NCBI GenBank assembly: GCA_944391315.1
Contig: CALXTD010000001.1
Span: 14,888 to 78,887 of the forward strand
DNA: 64,000 nucleotides
Origin: an uncultured Alphaproteobacteria bacterium
GTDB taxonomy: Bacteria > Pseudomonadota > Alphaproteobacteria > RF32 > CAG-239
Direction of reading: 5' to 3'
The notes under the pieces were generated by a model, which was given only the letters and a program-made list of their open reading frames with translations, made no database searches and had not been told where the DNA came from. This document shows positions 1,501 to 33,780 of the stretch, piece after piece; position 1 is the stretch's first letter; every line of letters begins with the position of its first letter. The position numbers and the translations under genes were made by a program.

Positions 1501-2100
1501 ATGATGAATTTACCAAGTTTTGAAGAGGTTTATATTTGCTCACAAATGCAAGTGGACCGTTATCATGAGTTATTGCAAGAAGGTGAAAATGTTTCTGATG
1601 ATGAGGTTGGTGTTTTAGAAGATGCTTATGAGTCTCATCGGCAAGTTTTGGAGCTTTTGCAAAAAATGTTTGAAGAGAGTTTTCCTAACATTAAGGTTAT
1701 GTTGTCGGGGGCTTTGTCTTATAACCAGTTTTCGGCTTATTGGGGATTGTTGCTCAAATATCCGGAGCTTTGTAGAGGCATTGAATGGAAAATTTTTACG
1801 GCTTTTTCTGAGGTGGCGCGCAAGATTCAATACAAATCACCGCAAGAGGCTTTTAGAAAGTGTTTGCCTGAAATTTCTGCCTTGTTTGCGACGCCGGTGA
1901 TGGTGGCTTATGTGTGGGAACGCTGCAATCAGTCAACCAGTTTGATTTTTGCGTTTTTGCGTTGGCTTTCTTCGGATTTGTTTTCGGCTGAGATTGGGGC
2001 AAATCTGGAGAAATTTTATAAGGCAATTCTTGATTATTCCAAGGGAAAAGAATGGACTGAAAATCAAAAATTGTTGGTTGAGATGTTGAAATCTCATTAA
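1501..2100 (+). CDS. Hypothetical protein (orphan cassette)
   Basis: 199-aa ORF; AT-rich upstream region with TTGACA at 1426; stop followed by a hairpin and T-run at 2101-2145. No recognisable motif. Confidence 0.5.
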   Translation: MMNLPSFEEVYICSQMQVDRYHELLQEGENVSDDEVGVLEDAYESHRQVLELLQKMFEESFPNIKVMLSGALSYNQFSAYWGLLLKYPELCRGIEWKIFTAFSEVARKIQYKSPQEAFRKCLPEISALFATPVMVAYVWERCNQSTSLIFAFLRWLSSDLFSAEIGANLEKFYKAILDYSKGKEWTENQKLLVEMLKSH

Positions 2101-2143: not shown

Positions 2144-2698
2144 TTAAAACTCGGTAAACAAAACAGGGCGGACATCATTTAATGCCGTTTGTTCTGCATA
2201 GCGAATTCCATGAGTTGAATAGCAGCAGACGCAGTCTTCGCAAGGGGAGGTGGCTGATACAATGCTTTTTATCAGCGGTGCTTTAATCTTTTCAAGACTT
2301 TGGTTGACCTCTTTGATGTTGCGAAAAATGGCGATTGTTTCCTCAATGGAGGGTAAGAAGGCTTGTCCTGCTTTAATGCCGTTTTGATGGTAATTAAAAC
2401 AATAAGACGCTGCTTCGACTCTTCCGGAGTGTTTCTCTGCTTGTTCGAGCAACATTTGGGTGGCTTCTTTGCCTGATAGATTTTGTGGAATTACTAAGCG
2501 TAAGTTGTTTGAAGCCCAAGGAAGCCTGTGTTGGTCAAGGCAAAATGACCAAAATCCTTTGCTCTCCACCAGTGCTACTATTGCAGAAATTTCTTGGTCT
2601 TCTTTTTGCTCAAAAGAAGTGCTTCCGTCGCTGTAATAAAACATTCCTGCGGCAATCTTGCGGCTGGGGTCATCTGTTTGTAAAATTGTTTTATCCAT
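2144..2698 (-). CDS. Hypothetical cytoplasmic protein with a possible distant DUF1566-like C-terminal core (HRLPW ... YSTHG ... VRPVLF)
   Basis: 184-aa ORF with no signal peptide. Weak motif resemblance to the W-x-LP / WSS / VRxV core of the secreted family elsewhere in this window. Confidence 0.55.
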   Translation of the reverse strand: MDKTILQTDDPSRKIAAGMFYYSDGSTSFEQKEDQEISAIVALVESKGFWSFCLDQHRLPWASNNLRLVIPQNLSGKEATQMLLEQAEKHSGRVEAASYCFNYHQNGIKAGQAFLPSIEETIAIFRNIKEVNQSLEKIKAPLIKSIVSATSPCEDCVCCYSTHGIRYAEQTALNDVRPVLFTEF

Positions 2699-2832: not shown

Positions 2833-2906
2833 TGCTTCATCGTCTAATGGTAGGACAGCGGACTCTGACTCCGTTAATCGTGGTTCGAATCCATGTGAAG
2901 CAGCCA
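2833..2906 (+). tRNA. tRNA-Gln (anticodon CUG)
   Basis: Cloverleaf folded by hand. Acceptor stem UGCUUCA/UGAAGCA, D-loop AAUGGUAGGACA, anticodon stem GCGGA/UCCGU with loop CUCUGAC, T-loop GGUUCGAAUCC, discriminator G and encoded CCA. Confidence 0.85.
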
Positions 2907-2917
2907 AGTTATGTAGA

Positions 2918-2955
2918 GGTTGGATTTTACGGTCTAACCTCTTTTTTTTAGGTTA
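2918..2955 (+). terminator. Intrinsic terminator after tRNA-Gln
   Basis: Stem agaggttgg / ctaacctct followed by a run of eight T. Confidence 0.45.
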
Positions 2956-3081
2956 TTAAGTGTTGTCAGTTGTTTTTTTGTGCTTTTCAATTAATCATTA
3001 TAATTGAATCATTTTGTTGTTAATGAAATGGTAATTGTTGAATATGAATAATTACTATATTATTATTTTTTTACTAAAGTA

Positions 3082-6000
3082 ATGTTTAAATTTCAATGTT
3101 GTTGCGAGGGAAGCATGTCAAAAACTATTGAAGAATTGAAAAGAATTTGGCTGCAAGATAATAAAGCCTTTAAAACTAAAGAACTTGGTGGATTACAAAC
3201 ATTTATTACTGATATTTTCAAATGTCCTCAATTATTTAATCTTAAACAAGGATATGAAAGTACGTCTGATAAAGATAGAAAAAATGAATTTACAATTGAG
3301 AAAAATAAAAATAAACGAAGAGCTGACATTGTTATTTTTATAAAAGGTAATGATATTGTTATTCCTGTTGAAGTTGAAAGATATGGAAATATTGGGGCTG
3401 GTGTTTCACAACTTATTGATTATCAAAACGATTATCAAAAATCCTATGGTATTCTGACGGATGGTTATTCTTGGAGATTTTATAATAATACAGTTTATAA
3501 AGTATTTACATTGGATGAAATACTTGAAAAATTTGATGTATTTGAGACGTTTTGGAGAGATTATATTACTGAGGAAAATTATTATCTTAATTTTTTTTGT
3601 GGAGGAGATGGCCAATCAACTATAGAGGAAAGTTTAAAAGTTGAAGAAAATAAAGAATTATTTTTTGAAGATATAACTAATCTAATTCAAAAATTTAAAA
3701 ATAAATTAGATATAGTTGGGTACTTATGCGAAAAAGGGACCGTTGATAGTAATAAAAAAGCTACTGAAATTGCTTATGCATATTTCATACAATTTATTCT
3801 TTACAAAAATTTAGTTGATAATTGCTATTCAACTTTCCATGAAGAATTTACGAAAAGAATGCATAATATATATAAAGGTTTAAAAGCAGGATTATACAGA
3901 ACTGTTTCATTAGAAGTATTTTCAATTTCAGGATTTATTTCTGATAAGTTATATAAGCCTTTTAGTAAAGAACAAGAATATATTAATAAAAAATTAAATG
4001 AAGTTATCAGAAAGCCTGAAGTATTGTTAGACGAGGTTACATTATGGTTAGATATAATTGTTTTTATTAAAAAATACAATTTTGCAAATATGAAAAATGA
4101 AATTTTTGGCTATATATATGAAAATTATCTTAAAGAATTATATTCGGAGGAAAATAAAGGTCAATATTTTACCGATCCGGCAATTGTTAACTTCATGCTT
4201 GATGAAGTTGGTTATACAATAAAAAACATTAAGAAGTTGCATAAAAAGGGAGCGTTGTCAATTATAGATCCTTCGTGTGGAAGTGGAACTTTTTTATATA
4301 GTGTAGTAGATAGAATTGTTACGGCCTTGTTTGATGGAACAGAACCAAGTGCTGAGGTAGTTGAAAAAATTGTCAATGATAATGTTTTTGGTCTAGATAT
4401 AGAAGAATTTCCTTTATATCTTGCTGAAATGAATATCTTAATGAGAATGCTTCCAATTATCATTAATAAAGATTACACAAATCCGATTGATAAAAAAATT
4501 AAAGTATTTAAAACTCAAGATAGTATTTCAGAATTTATAGATGCGGGAATAAGTGGGCAGATTGATGCAGGTCTAGATGAGAATACAGGACAATATTCTT
4601 TATTTAATCCATCTATTTTGGAACTTTCTTATAAAAGTTATATTCGAGATGAAGACGATTTGAAAGAAATGAAACAAAGTATACGTCCGCCAAGAAAAAG
4701 ATTCGATTTTGTGGTAGGGAATCCTCCATACATTGGATATAATGAATGTTGTAAACAGAAAGTTTTGTTTACTCAATTAGATAATATTCGCATGGATAAT
4801 ATTTATGGTGTAAATTTAAATACAGTTCCTGGGTATAAAAAGTCTTATTCTCCTAAACCTAATTTATTTGCCTTTTTTATTGCCCTTGGAGGAGGATTGT
4901 TAAAAATAAAGGGTAAATTATGCTATATTATACCGCAAACAGTTTTGACAGCTCAAGATCTTGATGTTTTAAGATATTATTTATCTAATAATGTAACGCT
5001 TGAAAAGATTTTAACCTTTAGCGGAAAATTATTTATAGGAAGAGGTATAAAAGGAAAAAATCCGATTGCAACATCTAGTCTTATTTTTATTATCAATAAA
5101 ACAACTCCTAAAAATGGTAATATAGTTAAAGTAATTAATTATACGAAGCATGATACATCTGATTTAAGTAAAATTTTGAACTCTCGTAAAAATAAAATTG
5201 TGAAAGAGATTTTACAGAAAGACTTACTGAATAACATAGAAAATTGGAATTTTTTAACTAAAACTAAAGAAGAAATTTTTTTAATAAAAAACTATATTCA
5301 AAATTCAATGTCTATAGAAGAGTTTAGAAGGACATTACCTAATTATGATTTTATACAATTTGATAAAGGTGTAGTATTTGATAAGAAAAAGATTGATCTT
5401 GAGGAAAAGGATTGGAAAATAATAAAAAAAATAAAAGGATATACTAAGTTAGGTACAAGTGGATATCTTGAAGATAAAGAAATAAGATATCCAGAGGGGG
5501 CTCAAGGTAAAAATATTTTTTTAAATAAATATAAAATTGTGTGGAGATATATGAATCCAGACGGTTTTTATTTTTCCGATGAAAATATAATGATAGATTT
5601 TAATTATGTGATAATATCATCTAATGATAAAAAAGAAATTTTGATGTTATTGTCTTTACTTAATTCAAAATTATCTAATTTTATATTTTATTTTTATTTA
5701 AAACTAGCTAACGAAAAAGATATGTTGTGCGGAATTAAGTCAATAAAACAATTTATTCGGGTTCCAAAAATAACGGAAAATAATAAATATTTAAAAGAAG
5801 AAATAGTAATTCAAACGCAAAAGATGTTAGATTTAGAGAATAAAAAGTTATCTGATTTTGTAGATTTTACAGATATTACGATGCAGAAATTTGATAAGGT
5901 GTCTTTTGATAATAATTCTTTTATCCTTACAAAAAATGACGAAAAATATAAATTAAAAATTAGAAATTTACAAAAGCTCTCCGTTATAAAAGAGAATTTT

Positions 6001-6219
6001 GAAATAAAAAAGTTAAAAGTAGAAAATATGAACTTACTTGAATTAAAAAACATGAGTATTTTAGATAAAGATGAAAAGAATAAAATAAAAGATTATATTG
6101 ATGATTTAATATTTGCTTTATATTTTGATATATCTTTAGATGGTTTAGATTATAAGAACTCTATGGATCTTAAGAAGCGTTGTGTTAAAAATAAATTTTA
6201 TAGTAATATTAATCTATAA
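3082..6219 (+). CDS. Single-chain restriction-modification-like enzyme (MmeI-like Type IIG/IIL architecture): HsdR_N/Mrr-like N-terminal nuclease-fold domain, gamma-class N6-adenine methyltransferase domain, C-terminal specificity domain. The likely true start is the ATG at 3116.
   Basis: N-terminus RRADIVIFIKGNDIVIPVEVERYGN ... ILTDGYSWRFY fits the HsdR_N PD-(D/E)xK pattern; motif I IIDPSCGSGTFLYS; motif IV FDFVVGNPPYIGY; ~500 aa beyond motif IV. GC is very low (~25-27%) against ~40-45% in the flanks. Confidence 0.75.
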   Translation: MFKFQCCCEGSMSKTIEELKRIWLQDNKAFKTKELGGLQTFITDIFKCPQLFNLKQGYESTSDKDRKNEFTIEKNKNKRRADIVIFIKGNDIVIPVEVERYGNIGAGVSQLIDYQNDYQKSYGILTDGYSWRFYNNTVYKVFTLDEILEKFDVFETFWRDYITEENYYLNFFCGGDGQSTIEESLKVEENKELFFEDITNLIQKFKNKLDIVGYLCEKGTVDSNKKATEIAYAYFIQFILYKNLVDNCYSTFHEEFTKRMHNIYKGLKAGLYRTVSLEVFSISGFISDKLYKPFSKEQEYINKKLNEVIRKPEVLLDEVTLWLDIIVFIKKYNFANMKNEIFGYIYENYLKELYSEENKGQYFTDPAIVNFMLDEVGYTIKNIKKLHKKGALSIIDPSCGSGTFLYSVVDRIVTALFDGTEPSAEVVEKIVNDNVFGLDIEEFPLYLAEMNILMRMLPIIINKDYTNPIDKKIKVFKTQDSISEFIDAGISGQIDAGLDENTGQYSLFNPSILELSYKSYIRDEDDLKEMKQSIRPPRKRFDFVVGNPPYIGYNECCKQKVLFTQLDNIRMDNIYGVNLNTVPGYKKSYSPKPNLFAFFIALGGGLLKIKGKLCYIIPQTVLTAQDLDVLRYYLSNNVTLEKILTFSGKLFIGRGIKGKNPIATSSLIFIINKTTPKNGNIVKVINYTKHDTSDLSKILNSRKNKIVKEILQKDLLNNIENWNFLTKTKEEIFLIKNYIQNSMSIEEFRRTLPNYDFIQFDKGVVFDKKKIDLEEKDWKIIKKIKGYTKLGTSGYLEDKEIRYPEGAQGKNIFLNKYKIVWRYMNPDGFYFSDENIMIDFNYVIISSNDKKEILMLLSLLNSKLSNFIFYFYLKLANEKDMLCGIKSIKQFIRVPKITENNKYLKEEIVIQTQKMLDLENKKLSDFVDFTDITMQKFDKVSFDNNSFILTKNDEKYKLKIRNLQKLSVIKENFEIKKLKVENMNLLELKNMSILDKDEKNKIKDYIDDLIFALYFDISLDGLDYKNSMDLKKRCVKNKFYSNINL

Positions 6220-6323
6220 ATTTAATATTATAATTTTTTCAATAGTTTTATTTCAGATTGCTTAAACGGTAAAGTTAAGCATTTTTATATTTGAGTTTTG
6301 TCTGATAAGTTCAGCCAAGTTTT

Positions 6324-6349
6324 AACCGCCGATTACGGCGGTTTTTTTG
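6324..6349 (+). terminator. Intrinsic terminator downstream of the RM-like gene
   Basis: Stem aaccgccg / cggcggtt followed by a T-run. Confidence 0.4.
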
Positions 6350-6427
6350 TGTTAAAAATATGGCAAAAAAGCTTAACAAATTTTGCCGGCGGTTTTAATA
6401 TATCAGCAAATAAAATAAGGATGAAAT

Positions 6428-7780
6428 ATGGAAGATTTATTTGCAGCAATGGCAAAACCGCAACCGGTTGCGGCAGAAGCTCCTGATGGGCTGAAAGAAT
6501 ATAGTGTTACCGAGATTTCGGCAGAGATTAAGCGCTGTGTTGAAACGCGGTTTAATCGGATTAAGGTTAAAGGTGAGATTTTTGGTTGCAAGCGTGCTGA
6601 TTCCGGTCATTATTACCTTTCTTTGAAAGATGAAAATGCGGTTATTTCTGCCGTGTGTTGGCGTGGGGTGGCTTCTGGTTTAAAATTTAAACCTGAAGAC
6701 GGACTTGAGGTTGTTGCGGTTGGTAAGATTACGACTTTTGCCGGAAAGTCGTCTTATCAATTGGTGATCGATCAGCTTGAAATTTCCGGTACCGGCGCTT
6801 TGTTAAAACTGTTGGAAGAGCGTAAAAAGCAGTTTGCCGCCGAGGGGCTTTTTGATCAGACTCATAAAAAGAAAATTCCTTATTTGCCACAGACAATCGG
6901 TGTGGTTACTTCTGCCAGCGGTGCGGTTATTCGTGATATTATTCATCGTGTGCGGGATCGCTTTCCTTCACATATTTTGTTGTGGCCGACGCCGGTGCAA
7001 GGAGAAGGAGCTGCTGAAAAAGTGGCGGCTGCCGTTAAAGGATTTAATGCTCTTTCTAAAGGCGGAAAAATTGCTCGTCCGGATGTGATTATTGTAGCGC
7101 GTGGCGGTGGTAGTCTTGAAGATTTGTGGCCTTTTAACGAAGAAGTTGTTATTCGTGCCGTTTATGATTCTGAGATTCCGATTATTTCTGCGGTGGGTCA
7201 TGAGACGGATACGATGTTGATTGATTATGTGGCTGATGTGCGGGCACCAACTCCGACCGGTGCGGCTGAGTTTGCGGTTCCCGTGAAGGCGGAGCTTGAG
7301 GCAAGTTTGGCAACTTCTCAGGCCAGATTAGTCAATGCTTTGCATCGCTATCTGATTAATTATAAAACTATTATTGATGGATTGGGACGTGGTATTCCTA
7401 ATCTTAATCAGATTTTGCAAGACTATTATCAGCGGCTTGATGATCGTACAGAGCGGCTCAAGCTTTCTATCAGAAATGTGATGCAGCAAAAAAACAATAC
7501 TTTGCAGATGGTGCCGCTTAAAGCTTATTACATCATGAACCTATTTGAAAAAAATCAAGAAAATTTAAAGAATTTGATGTTAAGACTTGAATCAGTTTCA
7601 GTCGAATCTGTGCTGCGGCGCGGGTTTGCCTGGGTGAAGGACAGCAAGCAAAAAACGGTTTATTCAACTGATCAGGCAAAAGCCAGCAGTGTGTTGGAAA
7701 TTCGTTTTGCAGACGGAGCCATTAAAACAAAACCAGTGGTGAAAAAGAATGAATTACAAGGCGATTTATTTGATTGTTAG
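6428..7780 (+). CDS. xseA: Exodeoxyribonuclease VII large subunit
   Basis: OB-fold N-terminus (YSVTEISAEIKRCVETRFNRIKVKGEI) and the XseA catalytic core are conserved over 450 aa. Confidence 0.9.
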   Translation: MEDLFAAMAKPQPVAAEAPDGLKEYSVTEISAEIKRCVETRFNRIKVKGEIFGCKRADSGHYYLSLKDENAVISAVCWRGVASGLKFKPEDGLEVVAVGKITTFAGKSSYQLVIDQLEISGTGALLKLLEERKKQFAAEGLFDQTHKKKIPYLPQTIGVVTSASGAVIRDIIHRVRDRFPSHILLWPTPVQGEGAAEKVAAAVKGFNALSKGGKIARPDVIIVARGGGSLEDLWPFNEEVVIRAVYDSEIPIISAVGHETDTMLIDYVADVRAPTPTGAAEFAVPVKAELEASLATSQARLVNALHRYLINYKTIIDGLGRGIPNLNQILQDYYQRLDDRTERLKLSIRNVMQQKNNTLQMVPLKAYYIMNLFEKNQENLKNLMLRLESVSVESVLRRGFAWVKDSKQKTVYSTDQAKASSVLEIRFADGAIKTKPVVKKNELQGDLFDC

Positions 7781-8606
7781 TGCATTGCTGATGAGCAATG
7801 CGGTTCAGGGGGCAGAGCCTCTTGAGTTTTGTGGAAAGCGCGTTCAGGGTGGTTTGGTCGTTGCTCATAAAGACAATGTTTATAAAGTTTTGCAAAACGG
7901 AAAAGAAGTACCGGTCAGTGAGGATGGCGACTTTTTGCTTGCCTTTGACAGAGATGCTCCTTTGCAGCAAAAAATAGTTATTTCAACAAATATTCCTGAA
8001 GAAGATTATCCGGAAGATAATTATACTTTTACCATTATTCCGACCAAGTGGGATGTGCAAAAAGTAAACGGTGTGGCTCAGAGCAAGGTGACGCCTTCGC
8101 AGCAGGACAGTGATGAGATTTTAAGAGAAAATCAGAGTGTCAGAATTGCATTGACCGAGAATAACAGTGATAAATCTTATTGGAAAAGCGGGTTTATTGA
8201 GCCGTTAGATGATTATCGAATCAGCGGGCAGTTTGGCGGACAAAGAATAATTAATAAAATTCCTAAGAGTCCGCATCGTGGTATGGACATGGCTGCTCCA
8301 GAAGGTACAGAGATTAAAGCTGCTGCTGATGGTGTGGTTAAGCTGAGCGGCGGTGATTTTTTCTATAGCGGAAATATGGTTATTATCGACCATGGACAAT
8401 CATTGCATACAATGTATGCGCATATGAAAGATGTGAAGGTTAAAGAAGGCGATTTTGTAAAGCAGGGCGAGGTTATCGGAACTGTCGGAAAAACAGGTCG
8501 TGCAACCGGTCCTCATCTTCATTGGGGCGCATCCTTTAATAATGTTCGTTTTAATCCTGAACATTTGCTTGAACTTGGCAAAAAAGAGTATTGTGAAAAA
8601 ATATAA
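7749..8606 (+). CDS. M23 family metallopeptidase with signal peptide
   Basis: Signal peptide; M23 signature HRGMDMAAPEGTEI ... GRATGPHLHWG; 32-nt overlap with xseA. Confidence 0.85.
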   Translation: MNYKAIYLIVSALLMSNAVQGAEPLEFCGKRVQGGLVVAHKDNVYKVLQNGKEVPVSEDGDFLLAFDRDAPLQQKIVISTNIPEEDYPEDNYTFTIIPTKWDVQKVNGVAQSKVTPSQQDSDEILRENQSVRIALTENNSDKSYWKSGFIEPLDDYRISGQFGGQRIINKIPKSPHRGMDMAAPEGTEIKAAADGVVKLSGGDFFYSGNMVIIDHGQSLHTMYAHMKDVKVKEGDFVKQGEVIGTVGKTGRATGPHLHWGASFNNVRFNPEHLLELGKKEYCEKI

Positions 8607-31508: not shown

Positions 31509-31829
31509 ATGTTTCGCGGTTTGGCGGCTCTGTTTTCTTCCGGAATTTTGCTTAATCCCGTGGCTTTGTTAGCCCTTATTCTTGGGGTGATTGAAGGCGT
31601 TAAGTTTGATTCTGCTCAGCTTTTTGAGTTTTTTACAAATTGGCCGGTTTATGCTTTAGCTGTTTTTGCGGCGGTTCTGTATAATTTTACTTTAGCGCGC
31701 CAATATCGTGATGAGAACGAAACTTCTCTTGATTATGCAAAAATGATTGCAAATTCTATGCGGACAGCTGTTTCTTTTATGGTTATTAATATTTTATCCG
31801 TATTGTTTATAAATTTTCTTATCTGGTAA
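31509..31829 (+). CDS. Small hypothetical membrane protein
   Basis: 106 aa with 3 predicted TM helices. Confidence 0.5.
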   Translation: MFRGLAALFSSGILLNPVALLALILGVIEGVKFDSAQLFEFFTNWPVYALAVFAAVLYNFTLARQYRDENETSLDYAKMIANSMRTAVSFMVINILSVLFINFLIW

Positions 31830-31831
31830 GT

Positions 31832-31870
31832 TAAAACCCCTTTGATAAAATTTCAAAGGGGTTTTTGTTT
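31832..31870. terminator. Bidirectional intrinsic terminator
   Basis: aaaacccctttga / tcaaaggggtttt stem flanked by A- and T-runs; sits between convergent genes. Confidence 0.55.
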
Positions 31871-31880
31871 GGATATATCT

Positions 31881-32054
31881 CTACAGCGATATGTCAACAT
31901 TTGTGCCGACAGTCGATGAGCTTGGTACTGAGCGGTCAGGGTCTAATAAGGTCTCTATTACCTGCTGCTGCATTTCAATCTGTTGTTTTACCAACGACAT
32001 CTGCATCTCTTGTACGGCAAGGGCATATGAACTTATTGCACCTAATTCAGCCAT
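31881..32054 (-). CDS. YjfB-like putative motility protein family (PF14070-like) small protein
   Basis: MAELGAISSYALAVQEMQMSLVKQQIEMQQQVIETLLD ... NVDISL matches the family pattern; RBS ggaga; start moved in from the longer track ORF. Confidence 0.5.
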   Translation of the reverse strand: MAELGAISSYALAVQEMQMSLVKQQIEMQQQVIETLLDPDRSVPSSSTVGTNVDISL

Positions 32055-32147
32055 GTTGTTTCTCCATTTTAGATTGCTTCTTGCACTTATCCTTACTATC
32101 AAGATTGATTATAGCATAAAAATCTTAAACTTTCACTAAAAAAATGG

Positions 32148-32176
32148 TGGACAAAATTTCGAAAACGTTGTATTAT
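32148..32176 (+). promoter_or_regulatory. Sigma70-like promoter candidate (TGGACA-N17-TATTAT)
   Basis: Read directly; 24 bp upstream of the 32200 ATG. Confidence 0.3.
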
Positions 32177-32199
32177 TCGGCAAATTTAAGGAGTTTTGC

Positions 32200-33780
32200 A
32201 TGCAAAATAAGATTAACCTGTCAACACTGAATGCAAAGATTGCGCAAGAGATTGTGCAATTTAAGCGCTTTGATTTGCTTGTAAAACATTTTCCGACGGC
32301 AAAGCAGATGGTGGAATATTCAAATTTTGTTCCACAATATCCTCAGCGAAAAAATTCGGTTTTGGCTTTGTTGGTGCAGAGCGGTGATGCTTTTTTGTTG
32401 CGTCGTTTTTGGGATTTTTATTTTGTGAAGCAGTCTGCTCCTGCTGAATGTGAAGAAAAATTTCTTGATGGGACAGATGCTGCCGGTCAAATGATAAATT
32501 ATCATTATTTTCGTAATGATGCGCCGTTTGAGGTCTTGCGTGAAGAGGCTGCTTTTCGGAATGTTGATTGTGCTGACTTTAATTATTCTCTTACACCAAA
32601 ACAAGCTGCTCGTTGGAAAATTTATAGTTTTTTGAAACAAAAGCGTAAATCTTTGGAGAAAAAGAAGCCATTGTCGGTAAATATTTCTCCTTTTGAAAGA
32701 AAATTTGATGCTTCGACAAAGACAATTAATGAAGCTGTAACATTGCCCAATAGTGGTGCTTGGCAAAAAGACGTTAAGCCCTTTGATAAGGTTGTTTTTG
32801 TTCGAGATAAAGAAAATTTTTCGGAACAAGTGGATTTAGATATTGCTTCTGATGTTTCTTTTACTGAGCAGGTTTTTAGAAATGCAGACTTTCCTGATGA
32901 ATTTTTTTGGGCAGGAGATATGCTGCGTTTGTGGAATAAGGCCTTTCCAAAGTTTGAGAAAAACGAGGCGGCGCTTTTTTTTGCTAAAAATAATGGGGTT
33001 TTGATGCTTCATCAGGATAGATCTTCGCAAAAGTTGAATTTGAAGTCAGGTAACGATGCGTCTGCATATTTACAATATAATAATGATGATTTTTTGGTGT
33101 TTGGAATTAATTATAAAAAGTGCTATTTGGAAGAAAAATATTTTCAAAATATTATTCGACATGAGTTGACTCATGGCGTTGATTTGTTTGATGATAAAGT
33201 TTGTTCTTATGAGTTTTCTGAATCTGATTTTATGAAATTTTGTGATGTGTTGCTTTATCAAGAACGTCATAACTTTGTGCGAAATGTCGTTAATTATTAT
33301 AGTCCGGAAGATCGTCGTGTTGAATTATTGGCAAAAATTATGGAGCGAGATTCTGAGGCTGTTAATAATCATCCTCTTATACCTTCAATTAAAAATTCTT
33401 TTACTGCGTTTACCAAATGGCGGCTTGAAAATAATCAGCAAAAAATTGAGCAATTTAATGGGCTGGTTCGCAAAAATCTGGGAGAGCATCGCTATAATAA
33501 GTGGTGTGAGGTGTTTGATGCTTTTGAAGATTATGCTGCTTCAGATACTTCTTTTGATTGGAAACATGCTTGGGATAAGCCGGATGCTAAAAATGAGAAA
33601 AAATTTCGCGCCTTTTTGAGTCACTTTTATAAAACCTTGGGAACAGGAGAGCGCATTGTTGATATCTGGGAAAATAAACTTGCCCATATGGCGGATGACT
33701 TTCTTGATAAAAATTCTTCTCAAAAAAGATTTTCAGCGCTTGATTTGTTTGGTAAAAATATTAAAAATAAAGAAATCTAG
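32200..33780 (+). CDS. Hypothetical protein with HExxH zincin-like motif (IIRHELTHGVDLFDD)
   Basis: 526-aa orphan ORF with an HELTH motif mid-protein. Confidence 0.6.
   Translation: MQNKINLSTLNAKIAQEIVQFKRFDLLVKHFPTAKQMVEYSNFVPQYPQRKNSVLALLVQSGDAFLLRRFWDFYFVKQSAPAECEEKFLDGTDAAGQMINYHYFRNDAPFEVLREEAAFRNVDCADFNYSLTPKQAARWKIYSFLKQKRKSLEKKKPLSVNISPFERKFDASTKTINEAVTLPNSGAWQKDVKPFDKVVFVRDKENFSEQVDLDIASDVSFTEQVFRNADFPDEFFWAGDMLRLWNKAFPKFEKNEAALFFAKNNGVLMLHQDRSSQKLNLKSGNDASAYLQYNNDDFLVFGINYKKCYLEEKYFQNIIRHELTHGVDLFDDKVCSYEFSESDFMKFCDVLLYQERHNFVRNVVNYYSPEDRRVELLAKIMERDSEAVNNHPLIPSIKNSFTAFTKWRLENNQQKIEQFNGLVRKNLGEHRYNKWCEVFDAFEDYAASDTSFDWKHAWDKPDAKNEKKFRAFLSHFYKTLGTGERIVDIWENKLAHMADDFLDKNSSQKRFSALDLFGKNIKNKEI

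What the first reader, a model, noticed from the sequence alone, without database searches (positions are those of the whole stretch)
2907..6423. Low-GC island next to tRNA-Gln carrying a single-chain RM-like enzyme and nothing else
The tRNA-Gln 3' end is followed directly by a ~3.4-kb block whose GC (~25-27%) is far below the flanking genes (~40-45%). The block holds one 1045-aa ORF with gamma-class N6-adenine methyltransferase motifs DPSCGSGTFL and NPPY and an HsdR_N/Mrr-like N-terminus. This is an MmeI-like Type IIG/IIL architecture in which one polypeptide cuts and methylates. No integrase, no att duplication of the tRNA 3' end and no companion methylase are visible. It could equally be a BREX/other defense-system PglX-like stray or a novel single-gene defense module. 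Insertion at a tRNA gene and the compositional break together point to horizontal acquisition.
Basis: partly seen in the sequence, partly recalled or inferred. Interest (0 to 1): 0.6.

Follow-up and report, generated by a model that had tools for sequence, protein, structure and literature searches.

The report
Strain-specific single-gene restriction-modification insertion at tRNA-Gln
A 3.4-kb piece of foreign, AT-rich DNA carrying one gene for a combined DNA-cutting and DNA-methylating enzyme was inserted precisely at the end of a tRNA-Gln gene in one strain of a gut alphaproteobacterium; it is a clean example of an ordinary kind of bacterial defence gene moving between genomes.

Summary
tRNA-Gln(CTG) lies at 2833-2906. 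It is followed by a block of 25% GC (the rest of the window is 42%; GC3 is 17% against 41±6%). The block holds one intact gene and nothing else.

The real start is probably ATG 3115, giving 1034 aa rather than 1045.

The protein is a single-chain Type IIG/IIC restriction-modification enzyme. It has an N-terminal PD-(D/E)xK nuclease (HSDR_N_2; invariant D71 and E86, E88 at least 90% conserved), a helical linker, a gamma-class N6-adenine methyltransferase (DPSCGSGTFL, NPPY) and a C-terminal recognition domain. All four domains are under purifying selection.

It is not a sequence member of the MmeI family, not a BREX PglX and not a TspDTI-subfamily member. It belongs to a compact, uncharacterised family found in many phyla.

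New result: contigs of the same species (98.7% identical flanks) and of a sister lineage have tRNA-Gln directly next to xseA. The insertion is exactly 3411 bp and is flanked by a 10-bp direct repeat, CAGCCAAGTT, made of the tRNA's last 6 nt plus 4.

Some relatives of the gene sit at tRNA 3' ends, one with a 43-bp repeat. Others sit next to recombinase genes. This is a new member of a known kind, of modest interest.

The parts
2833..2906 (+). tRNA-Gln (anticodon CTG), intact. It is the insertion target.
   Evidence: ARAGORN; Rfam RF00005, 61 bits; identical to the tRNA in the empty-site contigs.
2901..2910 (+). Left copy of the 10-bp direct repeat CAGCCAAGTT (the last 6 nt of the tRNA plus 4 nt downstream).
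   Evidence: Only two copies in the 64 kb, 0.09 expected. Present once in the empty sites. The blastn breakpoints overlap by exactly these 10 nt.
2911..6311 (+). Foreign insert, 3401 bp (3411 bp with one repeat copy), about 25% GC.
   Evidence: Absent from L175 (98.7%/95.9% identical flanks) and from L170-L173 (about 93%/88%). Composition.
2915..2950 (+). Hairpin plus T-run brought in by the insert. It now serves as the terminator-like element after tRNA-Gln.
   Evidence: Terminator scan. It is absent from the empty site, where the native terminator follows the tRNA.
3106..3111 (+). Shine-Dalgarno-like GAGGGA upstream of ATG 3115.
   Evidence: Sequence read. DNA homology to the homologues' loci begins at 3096-3105.
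3115..6219 (+). Gene for the 1034-aa single-chain Type IIG/IIC restriction-modification enzyme (the coordinates include the stop codon).
   Evidence: Pfam Eco57I 7.9e-18, MmeI_Mtase 1.4e-7, HSDR_N_2 7.8e-6. More than 900 homologues of about 1050 aa. dN/dS about 0.09-0.10.
3115..3594 (+). N-terminal PD-(D/E)xK nuclease domain (residues 1-160). Catalytic candidates are D71 (3325-3327), E86 (3370-3372) and E88 (3376-3378), within RRADIVIF...IPVEVERYG.
   Evidence: HSDR_N_2 scores 26.4 bits against a cut-off of 25. D71, P84 and E86 are invariant and E88 is at least 90% conserved in 33 homologues. The domain model has pLDDT 84 and an alpha-beta-beta-beta-alpha-beta order. The weak fold hits are mostly nucleases. 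The same 'D-EXE' pattern occurs in TspDTI and TsoI.
3595..4164 (+). Helical linker domain (residues about 161-350).
   Evidence: All-helical in the AF2 model. It corresponds to the helical linker of TspDTI and BpuSI.
4165..5094 (+). Gamma-class N6-adenine methyltransferase domain (residues about 351-660). Motif I DPSCGSGTFL lies at 4267-4296 and motif IV NPPY at 4720-4731.
   Evidence: Pfam Eco57I and MmeI_Mtase. Motif positions. Profile hits to BsaXI, BrxX, CamA, TaqI and MmeI methyltransferase domains.
5095..6216 (+). C-terminal target-recognition region and terminal helices (residues about 661-1034).
   Evidence: Best-modelled part of the structure (pLDDT 85-95). The CamA, TaqI-type and BpuSI alignments extend through it. 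It is the most variable region of the family and has the highest dN/dS, 0.13-0.18. There is a 26% match to the TsoI TRD.
6312..6321 (+). Right copy of the direct repeat CAGCCAAGTT.
6324..6350 (+). Native tRNA-Gln terminator (GC-rich hairpin plus T-run), displaced 3.4 kb from its tRNA by the insertion.
   Evidence: Terminator scan. It follows the tRNA directly in the empty sites. Relatives L016, L017 and L031 have the same layout.
6428..7780 (+). xseA (exonuclease VII large subunit), the host gene on the right flank. Its upstream region is unchanged.
   Evidence: Pfam Exonuc_VII_L 2e-94. The xseA-M23-RR-uppP-tRNA-Leu order is conserved in relatives.

Best explanation
The block is a recent, strain-specific horizontal insertion of 3401 bp of AT-rich foreign DNA. 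It landed exactly at the 3' end of tRNA-Gln(CTG) and duplicated 10 bp of target (CAGCCAAGTT). It left both the tRNA and the xseA promoter region intact.

Its only cargo is a 1034-aa single-chain Type IIG/IIC restriction-modification enzyme. The inferred mechanism is as follows. The C-terminal recognition domain binds a short, probably asymmetric, DNA site. The gamma-class methyltransferase domain uses S-adenosylmethionine to N6-methylate an adenine in that site on host DNA. The N-terminal PD-(D/E)xK nuclease (D71, E86, E88) is held by the helical linker and cuts unmethylated incoming DNA at a fixed distance from the site.

No companion methylase accompanies the gene in any context examined. 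The one protein must therefore protect the host on its own, as MmeI and TspDTI do.

What is shown: the insertion, its borders, the domain content, the conservation of catalytic residues and purifying selection. What is inferred: enzymatic activity, cleavage geometry, the recognition sequence and the recombination mechanism.

The insertion was most probably made by a recombinase not encoded in the insert. The likeliest is a tyrosine integrase acting in trans on a short core at the tRNA end, as in integrase-less cis-mobilisable islands.
For: Insertion:
- Five contigs lack the insert: L175 (98.7%/95.9% identical flanks) and L170-L173 (about 93%/88%). They carry orf183-tRNA-Gln-xseA uninterrupted.
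- Homology to the window breaks at 2910 and 6312, with a 10-nt overlap.
- The repeat is unique to these two places in the window.
- A shared 10-mer or longer at the tRNA end has P of about 0.005.

Foreign origin:
- GC z = -5.7 and GC3 z = -4.1.
- Homologues at 65-82% identity are likewise 26-30% GC genes in 31-54% GC flanks.

Enzyme:
- Pfam Eco57I, MmeI_Mtase and HSDR_N_2 all score above their cut-offs.
- D71, P84, E86, Q99, the GILTDG..W.FY block (I113-G117, W120 and F122 invariant; G112 and Y123 at least 90% conserved) and NPPY are invariant. In motif I (DPSCGSGTFL), D, P, G, S, G, F and L are invariant and C and T are at least 90% conserved.
- dN/dS is 0.09-0.10 overall, 0.09-0.10 in the nuclease domain and 0.04-0.05 in the methyltransferase domain.
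- The AF2 model (pLDDT 74) aligns over its full length with BpuSI and PglX and, with lower scores, with MmeI and DrdV.
- The biochemically active Thermus enzymes TspDTI, Tth111II and TsoI have the same domain order, the same atypical D-EXE nuclease motif and DPACGSG, and also lack a flanking methylase (PMC3384240).

Solitary state:
- No second amino-methyltransferase motif occurs in the 64 kb.
- No methylase is called next to the gene in nine independent contexts.

Recombinase in trans:
- In L179 a 58% homologue lies between direct repeats whose core equals the 3' end of a tRNA-Phe, beside a tyrosine integrase gene.
- In L178 a 61% homologue is an RM-only insert with a 43-bp repeat made of the tRNA-Phe 3' end plus its terminator.
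- In L001-L004 the 80% homologue also follows a tRNA-Gln.
Against: - No biochemical or methylome data exist for any member of this family, so cutting, methylation and the site are inferred.
- The nuclease motif is the atypical D...ExE form, with R rather than K after it.
- Foldseek with the isolated N-terminal domain gave no significant hit (best E = 0.16).
- The 10-bp repeat is short for a tRNA-targeting integrase. No integrase homologue was found in the 64-kb window and the rest of the genome was not available.
- The non-coding ends of the insert share no homology with other family loci. No conserved 'element end' supports a defined mobile unit.
- Synonymous sites are near saturation, so the dN/dS values are approximate.
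Confidence: 0.85

Rival explanations
1. The protein is effectively a solitary DNA methyltransferase, acting as an epigenetic regulator or a decayed RM. Its N-terminal domain no longer cuts DNA.
For: - The Lys of the canonical ExK is replaced (E-V-E-R).
- The isolated domain has no significant fold match.
- No activity data exist.
- Shorter relatives that match only residues about 525-910 exist.
Against: - D71 and E86 are invariant and E88 is at least 90% conserved. The nuclease domain has dN/dS of 0.09-0.10, about as constrained as the protein overall.
- The same D-EXE pattern is present in the active endonucleases TspDTI, Tth111II and TsoI, and in BamHI.
- Two family members, P0017 and P0018, carry canonical E-x-K at the same place.
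Confidence: 0.1
2. The gene is a stray PglX-type methyltransferase from a BREX (or DISARM) system that has lost its partners.
For: - PglX/BrxX structures are among the best Foldseek matches (8c45, E = 1.6e-17, TM about 0.43-0.45).
- NCBIfam and PADLOC PglX models give weak partial hits.
Against: - The NCBIfam BREX equivalogs score 41, 38 and 20 bits against cut-offs of 400, 500 and 900.
- The hits cover only the shared methyltransferase core.
- No PglZ, BrxC, BrxL or Drm genes appear in the window flanks or in any of nine homologue contexts.
- The protein has a conserved PD-(D/E)xK domain with the HSDR_N_2 signature.
Confidence: 0.02
3. Alternative mobility mechanism: the insert entered by a transposition-like or recombinase-independent event that makes staggered breaks and fills them in. 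This is the 'insertion with target duplication' described for RM-only units. The RM enzyme's own nuclease might help.
For: - The insert carries RM only. It has an exact 10-bp duplication and no recombinase gene.
- L178 shows an RM-only insert with a 43-bp duplication.
- Furuta et al. [quoted passage not shown]
Against: - No terminal inverted repeats occur at the insert ends.
- Three of nine contexts lie at tRNA 3' ends, which is typical of integrases rather than transposases.
- L179 has a tyrosine integrase and tRNA-derived repeats.
- Known Type IIG enzymes leave 2-nt overhangs, not 10- or 43-nt staggers (general knowledge; 11/9 cleavage is cited).
Confidence: 0.25
4. Alternative mobility mechanism: a circular or linear donor fragment integrated by a single illegitimate crossover at a 10-bp microhomology after natural transformation. 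No dedicated recombinase was involved.
For: - The structure is an insert flanked by a sequence that is present once in the empty site. This is what a Campbell-type crossover at a microhomology yields.
- The insert's left end looks like a region downstream of a tRNA, with a hairpin plus T-run directly after CAGCCAAGTT. This suggests that the donor copy also lay downstream of a tRNA-Gln.
Against: - Ten base pairs is a very short substrate.
- The recurrence at tRNA ends in independent events, with a 43-bp repeat in L178 and an integrase in L179, argues for a directed mechanism.
Confidence: 0.15

Closest known systems
Thermus TspDTI subfamily of Type IIC/IIG/IIS enzymes (TspDTI, Tth111II/TthHB27I, TsoI; PMC3384240)
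   Same: - The domain order is nuclease (about 1-160), helical linker (about 160-360), gamma methyltransferase, then TRD.
- Both have the atypical D-EXE nuclease motif in nearly the same local context: RAD.(I/V)F ... (V/I)ExER.G.
- The SAM motif is DP(A/S)CGSG.
- There is a long insertion between motifs III and IV.
- No methylase gene lies in the flanks.
- Some homologues carry canonical D-EXK.
   Different: - Against TsoI there is only 22.5% identity over 280 residues of the methyltransferase domain and 26% over 85 residues of the TRD. The nuclease and linker do not align.
- Motif IV is NPPY, not NPPW.
- The protein is about 80-110 residues shorter.
- The gene is 25% GC and sits in mesophilic gut bacteria.
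- The recognition site and cleavage distance are unknown.
MmeI family (Type IIL; PDB 5HR4; PMC2582602, PMC2731913)
   Same: - Single polypeptide with an N-terminal nuclease, a helical spacer, a gamma N6A methyltransferase and a C-terminal TRD.
- Solitary gene with no second methylase, so the host must be protected by the same protein.
- The structure aligns with the model (E = 4e-13).
   Different: - Only the first 78 of 259 positions of Pfam MmeI_Mtase match (31 bits). MmeI_N, MmeI_hel, MmeI_TRD and MmeI_C do not match at E up to 1.
- Structural alignment shows 12% identity.
- The profile E-value to the MmeI sequence is only 0.005, confined to motif I.
BpuSI / Eco57I group of Type IIG enzymes (PDB 3S1S; PMC3185434)
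   Same: - Pfam Eco57I is the best domain hit (7.9e-18).
- BpuSI aligns over the full length of the model (994 columns, E = 2e-17).
- Both have a PD-x(n)-ExK-type N-terminal nuclease.
   Different: - Identity is 11% and TM is 0.28-0.32.
- BpuSI did not appear among the hits at E up to 1 in phmmer or in the profile search of PDB sequences.
- Eco57I and BpuSI are accompanied by separate methyltransferases (general knowledge). This gene is alone.
RM genes as mobile units flanked by direct repeats (Furuta et al. 2010, PMC2853133); integrase-less cis-mobilisable islands at tRNA genes
   Same: - An RM-only insert is bounded by a duplicated target.
- The target overlaps the 3' end of a tRNA gene.
- Related copies lie next to integrase or resolvase genes or inside larger mobile elements.
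   Different: - The duplication is only 10 bp. It extends downstream of the tRNA rather than far into it.
- The tRNA-associated cases in that paper carry an integrase inside the insert, and this one does not.

Membership tests
Type IIG/IIC single-chain restriction-modification enzymes | PD-(D/E)xK endonuclease domain fused at the N-terminus | tested here: met
   - HSDR_N_2 scores 26.4 bits against a cut-off of 25.
- D71, P84 and E86 are invariant and E88 is at least 90% conserved.
- The domain model has an alpha-beta-beta-beta-alpha-beta core, pLDDT 84.
- Fold hits are weak and not significant; the best include nucleases: Cas4, HsdR, Hjc, DrdV.
- dN/dS is 0.09-0.10.
Type IIG/IIC single-chain restriction-modification enzymes | Gamma-class N6-adenine methyltransferase domain, with motif I before motif IV (NPPY) and the TRD C-terminal to it, in the same chain | tested here: met
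   - Pfam Eco57I 7.9e-18.
- DPSCGSGTFL at residues 385-394 and NPPY at 536-539.
- Profile hits to TaqI, CamA, BsaXI and BrxX.
- Structural alignments to CamA and BpuSI run through the C-terminal region.
Type IIG/IIC single-chain restriction-modification enzymes | SAM-stimulated cleavage at a fixed distance from a specific site, and methylation of that site | not testable with these tools
   This needs purified protein or a methylome.
MmeI family (Type IIL) | Sequence membership: the Pfam MmeI_N, MmeI_hel, MmeI_Mtase, MmeI_TRD and MmeI_C domains | tested here: not met
   Only MmeI_Mtase positions 7-84 of 259 match (31.4 bits). The other four models give no hit at E up to 1.
MmeI family (Type IIL) | Solitary gene, with no separate methyltransferase | tested here: met
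   No second amino-methyltransferase motif occurs in the 64 kb. No methylase is called next to the gene in nine contexts.
MmeI family (Type IIL) | Methylation of only one DNA strand | not testable with these tools
   This needs methylome or biochemical data.
Thermus TspDTI subfamily | Atypical D-EXE nuclease motif and a DPxCGSG SAM motif | tested here: met
   The window protein has RRADIVIF...IPVEVERYG and DPSCGSG. TsoI has GRADAIF...VIEYERPG and DPACGSG.
Thermus TspDTI subfamily | Full-length sequence similarity among members (BLAST E about 0 over the whole protein) and an NPPW motif IV | tested here: not met
   Against TsoI: 22.5% over 280 aa (E = 8.5e-9) and 26% over 85 aa. There is no alignment of the nuclease or the linker. 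Motif IV is NPPY.
BREX PglX | A match to the PglX equivalog models above cut-off, and BREX partner genes (PglZ, BrxC, BrxL) nearby | tested here: not met
   The scores are 41, 38 and 20 bits against cut-offs of 400, 500 and 900. The neighbours are tRNA-Gln and xseA. No BREX genes occur in the homologue contexts.
Type I / Type ISP restriction enzymes | Separate HsdS and HsdR subunits, or an SF2 helicase/translocase domain in the chain | tested here: not met
   There are no such Pfam hits. The region between the nuclease and the methyltransferase is a helical linker of about 190 residues. No neighbouring hsd genes are present.
Integrase-mediated tRNA-gene island | Direct repeats that include the 3' end of the target tRNA, with an empty site in relatives | tested here: met
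   The 10-bp repeat comprises 6 nt of the tRNA plus 4 nt. Five contigs carry the empty site.
Integrase-mediated tRNA-gene island | An integrase gene inside the island | tested here: not met
   The RM ORF is the only ORF in the insert. No homologue of the L179 integrase occurs in the window.

The most novel reading that the evidence does not exclude
Members of this compact RM family may move as naked single-gene units, by a target-duplicating insertion aimed at the junction between a tRNA 3' end and its terminator. The duplications seen are 10 bp here and 43 bp in L178, with no recombinase in the insert. Either the enzyme's own nuclease contributes, or a so far unrecognised host pathway does. 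That would give a tractable model for the unexplained 'RM insertion with target duplication' phenomenon.
Probability: 0.1. Interest if true: 0.7.

Novelty: new member of a known kind. Interest (0 to 1): 0.35.

Why it matters
The locus is a very clean natural before-and-after pair. The same species is seen with and without a 3.4-kb single-gene restriction-modification insert, and the junctions are resolved to the base. It documents strain-level turnover of defence genes in an uncultured gut alphaproteobacterium.

It also points to a compact, widely transferred and biochemically uncharacterised subfamily of Type IIG enzymes. Its recognition site could be read directly from methylomes of insert-bearing and insert-free strains.

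For specialists in RM mobility, the family offers several independent insertion events at tRNA ends: a 10-bp repeat, a 43-bp repeat, and an integrase-associated tandem array. These could help decide how recombinase-less RM units move. None of this overturns current understanding.

Tried and rejected
- **Empty site via XseA.**
  - Exact-protein look-ups of XseA found only the same insert-bearing arrangement.
  - Scans of GTDB genomes and JGI metagenomes with XseA reached only other species, at most 78% identity. There, the region upstream of xseA is not syntenic and tRNA-Gln lies elsewhere.
- **Empty site via orf183.** The exact-protein look-up of orf183 also found only the insert-bearing arrangement. 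The empty site was finally found through homologues of orf183.
- **Solved relatives.** phmmer and a profile search of PDB sequences found only methyltransferase-core matches. A profile of the N-terminal domain found nothing meaningful.
- **Vehicles.** There are no relatives on IMG/VR viral contigs and no full-length relatives on PLSDB plasmids. The Thermus and haloarchaeal plasmid hits are methyltransferase-core matches of 23-30%.
- **Conserved element ends.** DNA homology among family loci is limited to the ORF and its ribosome-binding site. No terminal inverted repeats were found.
- **Flanking repeats in other loci.** The 9-10-bp repeats in L001, L005, L007 and L176 are at chance level without an empty site.
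- **Homology-facilitated illegitimate recombination.** I considered this with the tRNA as anchor. The right junction shows no microhomology that would support it, so I did not pursue it.
- **Not attempted.**
  - I did not try to infer the recognition sequence from motif avoidance, because 64 kb is too little sequence.
  - I did not do a full Pfam scan of the other roughly 45 ORFs for a trans-acting integrase. Only a tblastn with the L179 integrase was run, and it was negative.

Full report
**Observation**

ARAGORN and Rfam place an intact tRNA-Gln(CTG) at 2833-2906 on the + strand. GC falls from about 42% to 21-30% from about 2950 to about 6310. The stretch 2907-6423 is 25.2% GC against 42.1% for the rest of the window, and it is the lowest-GC 3-kb stretch of the 64 kb.

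I compared the gene with 44 other long ORFs of the window. Its GC is 5.7 standard deviations low. Its GC3 is 16.7% against 41.5±6.1%, which is 4.1 standard deviations low.

The block holds one long ORF, 3082-6219. The biological start is almost certainly ATG 3115:
- It follows GAGGGA at 3106-3111.
- The 100%-identical database protein and the gene calls on the identical contigs are 1034 aa.
- All homologues start there.

Nothing else is in the block. There is no Rfam family other than the tRNA, and no ORF of at least 30 aa in the non-coding parts. The flanks are housekeeping genes. On the left are a PEP-utilising enzyme and two lineage-specific ORFs. On the right are xseA, an M23 peptidase, a response regulator, uppP and tRNA-Leu.

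**The insertion is demonstrated, and there is a target duplication**

In fact CAGCCAAGTT occurs at 2901-2910, made of the last 6 nt of the tRNA including CCA plus 4 nt. It occurs again at 6312-6321. These are its only two occurrences in the window, against 0.09 expected. A shared 10-mer or longer between the 30 nt around the tRNA end and the shuffled downstream spacer arises in 0.5% of trials.

Exact-protein look-ups with XseA and orf183 only recovered the same insert-bearing strain. Scans with XseA reached only other species, where the region upstream of xseA is not syntenic.

Homologues of the small ORF next to the tRNA, at 96% and 86% identity, led to five contigs: L175 and L170-L173. In these, orf183, tRNA-Gln and xseA are contiguous and the RM gene is absent.
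- L175 is 98.7% and 95.9% identical to the two flanks of the window, so it is the same species.
- L170-L173 are about 93% and 88% identical, a sister lineage.

In every case homology to the window breaks at 2910 and 6312, with a 10-nt overlap. The alignment shows CAGCCAAGTT once in the empty site. The event therefore added 3411 bp: 3401 bp of foreign DNA (2911-6311) plus one copy of the 10-bp target.

The GC-rich hairpin at 6324-6343 is the native tRNA-Gln terminator. Relatives have the same layout. The hairpin at 2915-2942 came in with the insert. The tRNA and the region upstream of xseA are unaltered.

**What the gene encodes**

Pfam gives three hits, all above their gathering scores:

| Model | Residues (1045 numbering) | E-value |
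|---|---|---|
| Eco57I | 434-649 | 7.9e-18 |
| MmeI_Mtase | 379-454 | 1.4e-7 |
| HSDR_N_2 | 66-135 | 7.8e-6 |

PADLOC calls it with Type I/II methyltransferase, PglX and Type IIG models, all through the methyltransferase core. The NCBIfam BREX PglX equivalogs score 41, 38 and 20 bits against cut-offs of 400-900.

More than 900 homologues of about 1050 aa were found. Where the source names them, they come from Patescibacteria, Dehalococcoidia, Phycisphaerae, Endomicrobia and Smithellaceae. Most are named only 'Eco57I restriction-modification methylase domain-containing protein'.

An exhaustive search of 1.8 billion representatives finds just 131 clusters at E below 1e-30. Fewer than twenty of these are full-length, so the family is compact.

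In an alignment of 33 members (1034 numbering), the conservation is as follows:
- D71, P84, E86, Q99 and NPPY (536-539) are invariant.
- In the block GILTDG..W.FY, I113-G117, W120 and F122 are invariant. G112 and Y123 are at least 90% conserved.
- In motif I, DPSCGSGTFL (385-394), D, P, G, S, G, F and L are invariant. C and T are at least 90% conserved.
- E88 is at least 90% conserved.
- Two members, P0017 and P0018, carry canonical E-x-K where the others have E-x-E.

Nei-Gojobori dN/dS was computed against the 80% and 82% homologues. Synonymous sites are near saturation, so the values are approximate.

| Region | dN/dS |
|---|---|
| Whole protein | 0.09-0.10 |
| Nuclease domain | 0.09-0.10 |
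| Helical linker | 0.04-0.05 |
| Methyltransferase domain | 0.04-0.05 |
| C-terminal region | 0.13-0.18 |

An AlphaFold model (pLDDT 74, pTM 0.62) shows four parts:
- an alpha/beta N-terminal domain (1-160);
- a helical region (about 175-350);
- a Rossmann methyltransferase with a disordered insertion of about 75 residues between motifs III and IV (452-527);
- a well-modelled C-terminal region.

Foldseek finds PglX/BrxX, BpuSI, CamA, M.BseCI, DrdV and MmeI at E of 1e-17 to 1e-13, but at only 10-19% identity. The N-terminal domain modelled alone (pLDDT 84) has no significant Foldseek match. Its best weak hits include PD-(D/E)xK nucleases: Cas4, an HsdR fragment, Hjc, RecU and the DrdV nuclease.

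Sequence searches of the PDB find only methyltransferase cores.

**Closest characterised enzymes**

The Thermus TspDTI subfamily (TspDTI, Tth111II/TthHB27I, TsoI) is described as follows (PMC3384240):
- Its domain order is nuclease (1-160, HSDR_N-like), helical linker (160-360), gamma methyltransferase, then TRD.
- It has an 'atypical D-EXE' nuclease motif and DPACGSG.
- It has no methylase in the flanks.
- Some of its homologues carry D-EXK.

The window protein shares all of this. The local motif context also agrees: RRADIVIF...IPVEVERYG here, and GRADAIF...VIEYERPG in TsoI.

Direct comparison with TsoI, however, gives only 22.5% identity over 280 methyltransferase residues and 26% over 85 TRD residues. 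Motif IV is NPPY rather than NPPW. The gene therefore works like these enzymes but is not a sequence member of that subfamily.

The same holds for MmeI. The architecture and the solitary arrangement agree, but four of the five MmeI Pfam domains do not match.

I reject the BREX PglX reading for three reasons: the scores are far below cut-off, BREX partners are absent from every context, and a conserved nuclease domain is present.

**Solitary state**

No other (N/D/S)PP(Y/F/W/H) motif in an ORF of at least 150 codons exists in the 64 kb. In nine independent genomic contexts of family members, no methyltransferase is called next to the gene. Host protection must therefore come from the same polypeptide. 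Whether it modifies one strand, as in Type IIL, cannot be told from sequence.

**How the gene travels**

Close homologues (65-82% identity) are also 26-30% GC genes embedded in flanks of 31-54% GC. DNA homology between loci is confined to the ORF and its ribosome-binding site. No relatives were found on IMG/VR viral contigs, and none at full length on PLSDB plasmids.

The contexts differ:
- **L001-L004 (80% homologue).** The gene lies 259 bp downstream of a tRNA-Gln(TTG), in the same orientation as here.
- **L178 (61%).** This is an RM-only insert bounded by a 43-bp direct repeat, 42 of 43 identical. The repeat consists of the last 9 nt of a tRNA-Phe plus its terminator.
- **L179/L180 (58%).**
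  - The gene lies between direct repeats of about 45 bp, present in three copies.
  - The core of the repeats equals the 11 nt before the CCA of an adjacent tRNA-Phe 3' half.
  - A tyrosine integrase gene lies next to it. This looks like tandem accretion at an att site.
- **L005 and L186.** The gene sits in elements with resolvase or large serine recombinase, primase, GmrSD or Mrr genes.
- **L007, L176 and L187.** These show no tRNA or recombinase in the sequence available.

The pattern resembles published cases of RM units flanked by direct repeats, including tRNA-linked ones (PMC2853133).

For the window, the most economical reading is site-specific integration at a short core at the tRNA-Gln end, by a recombinase supplied in trans or since lost. 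I put this at roughly 0.5. A transposition-like target-duplicating insertion gets about 0.25, and a crossover at a microhomology about 0.15. No homologue of the L179 integrase is in the window, and the rest of the genome was not available.

**Verdict**

This is a real, well-delimited, recently acquired single-gene restriction-modification insertion. The enzyme is a new, uncharacterised member of the known Type IIG/IIC class. The mode of arrival, at a tRNA end with a short direct repeat and no integrase, is a variation on documented RM mobility.

The main value added here is the base-resolution empty site and the correction of the 'no duplication' statement. Interest is modest, at 0.35. The only route to higher interest would be evidence that the family inserts without a recombinase.

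Noticed in passing
L179 about 1531-1571, 2815-2854 and 6533-6574; tRNA-Phe 3' half at about 6690-6745 (minus strand); integrase gene 6911-7969: A 58% homologue of the RM gene lies between copies of a direct repeat of about 45 bp. The core of the repeat (GAGTTGCGGCA on the tRNA strand) equals the end of an adjacent, 5'-disrupted tRNA-Phe that ARAGORN does not call. A tyrosine integrase gene lies beside it. A third repeat copy bounds a second small cassette (a 156-aa ORF). This suggests tandem accretion at an att site.
   Followed up: partly
L178 2790-2832 and 6431-6473: A 61% homologue is an RM-only insert flanked by a 43-bp direct repeat, 42 of 43 identical. The repeat is made of the last 9 nt of tRNA-Phe(GAA) plus its terminator. 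No recombinase is in the insert.
   Followed up: partly
L001 3927-4001 (and L002-L004): The 80% homologue sits 259 bp downstream of a tRNA-Gln(TTG), in an unrelated gene context (HAD phosphatase and aldose epimerase). This is a second, independent association with a tRNA-Gln gene. No empty site was available, and no convincing flanking repeat was found.
   Followed up: partly
window 1501-2100 (+) and 2144-2698 (-): Two ORFs of 199 and 184 aa lie between the PEP-utilising enzyme gene and tRNA-Gln. They have no Pfam family. The 184-aa one has only two homologue clusters in 5.8 billion proteins, both from the same lineage, so these are lineage-restricted orphan genes.
   Followed up: partly
window 6428 (5' side of xseA), compared with L008-L031: The order xseA-M23 peptidase-(response regulator)-uppP-tRNA-Leu is conserved across related uncultured gut and rumen alphaproteobacteria. 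Everything upstream of xseA differs between species, and tRNA-Gln lies elsewhere (for example 3 kb downstream on the other strand in L016 and L017). The 5' side of xseA is a synteny breakpoint in this group.
   Followed up: partly
window 4468-4695 (residues 452-527 of the 1034-aa protein): A segment of about 75 residues between methyltransferase motifs III and IV is modelled with pLDDT below 50 and is length-variable in the family. TsoI has a comparably long insertion at the same place.
   Followed up: no
window 2972-2982 and 6341-6351: An 11-mer, GTTTTTTTGTG, occurs both inside the left end of the insert and at the T-run of the native tRNA-Gln terminator. It is possibly chance (it is T-rich), or a hint that the donor copy also lay behind a tRNA terminator.
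   Followed up: no
window about 31750-33780: This is the second-lowest GC region of the window (34-36%). It includes a 526-aa ORF (32200-33780) with GC3 of 28.5%, the lowest after the RM gene. I did not examine it.
   Followed up: no
L013 (JAISVX010000003.1): An 829-kb contig labelled 'Lactobacillaceae bacterium' MAG carries the alphaproteobacterial xseA-M23-RR-uppP arrangement, with 68% XseA identity to the window. The taxonomic label of that record looks doubtful.
   Followed up: no
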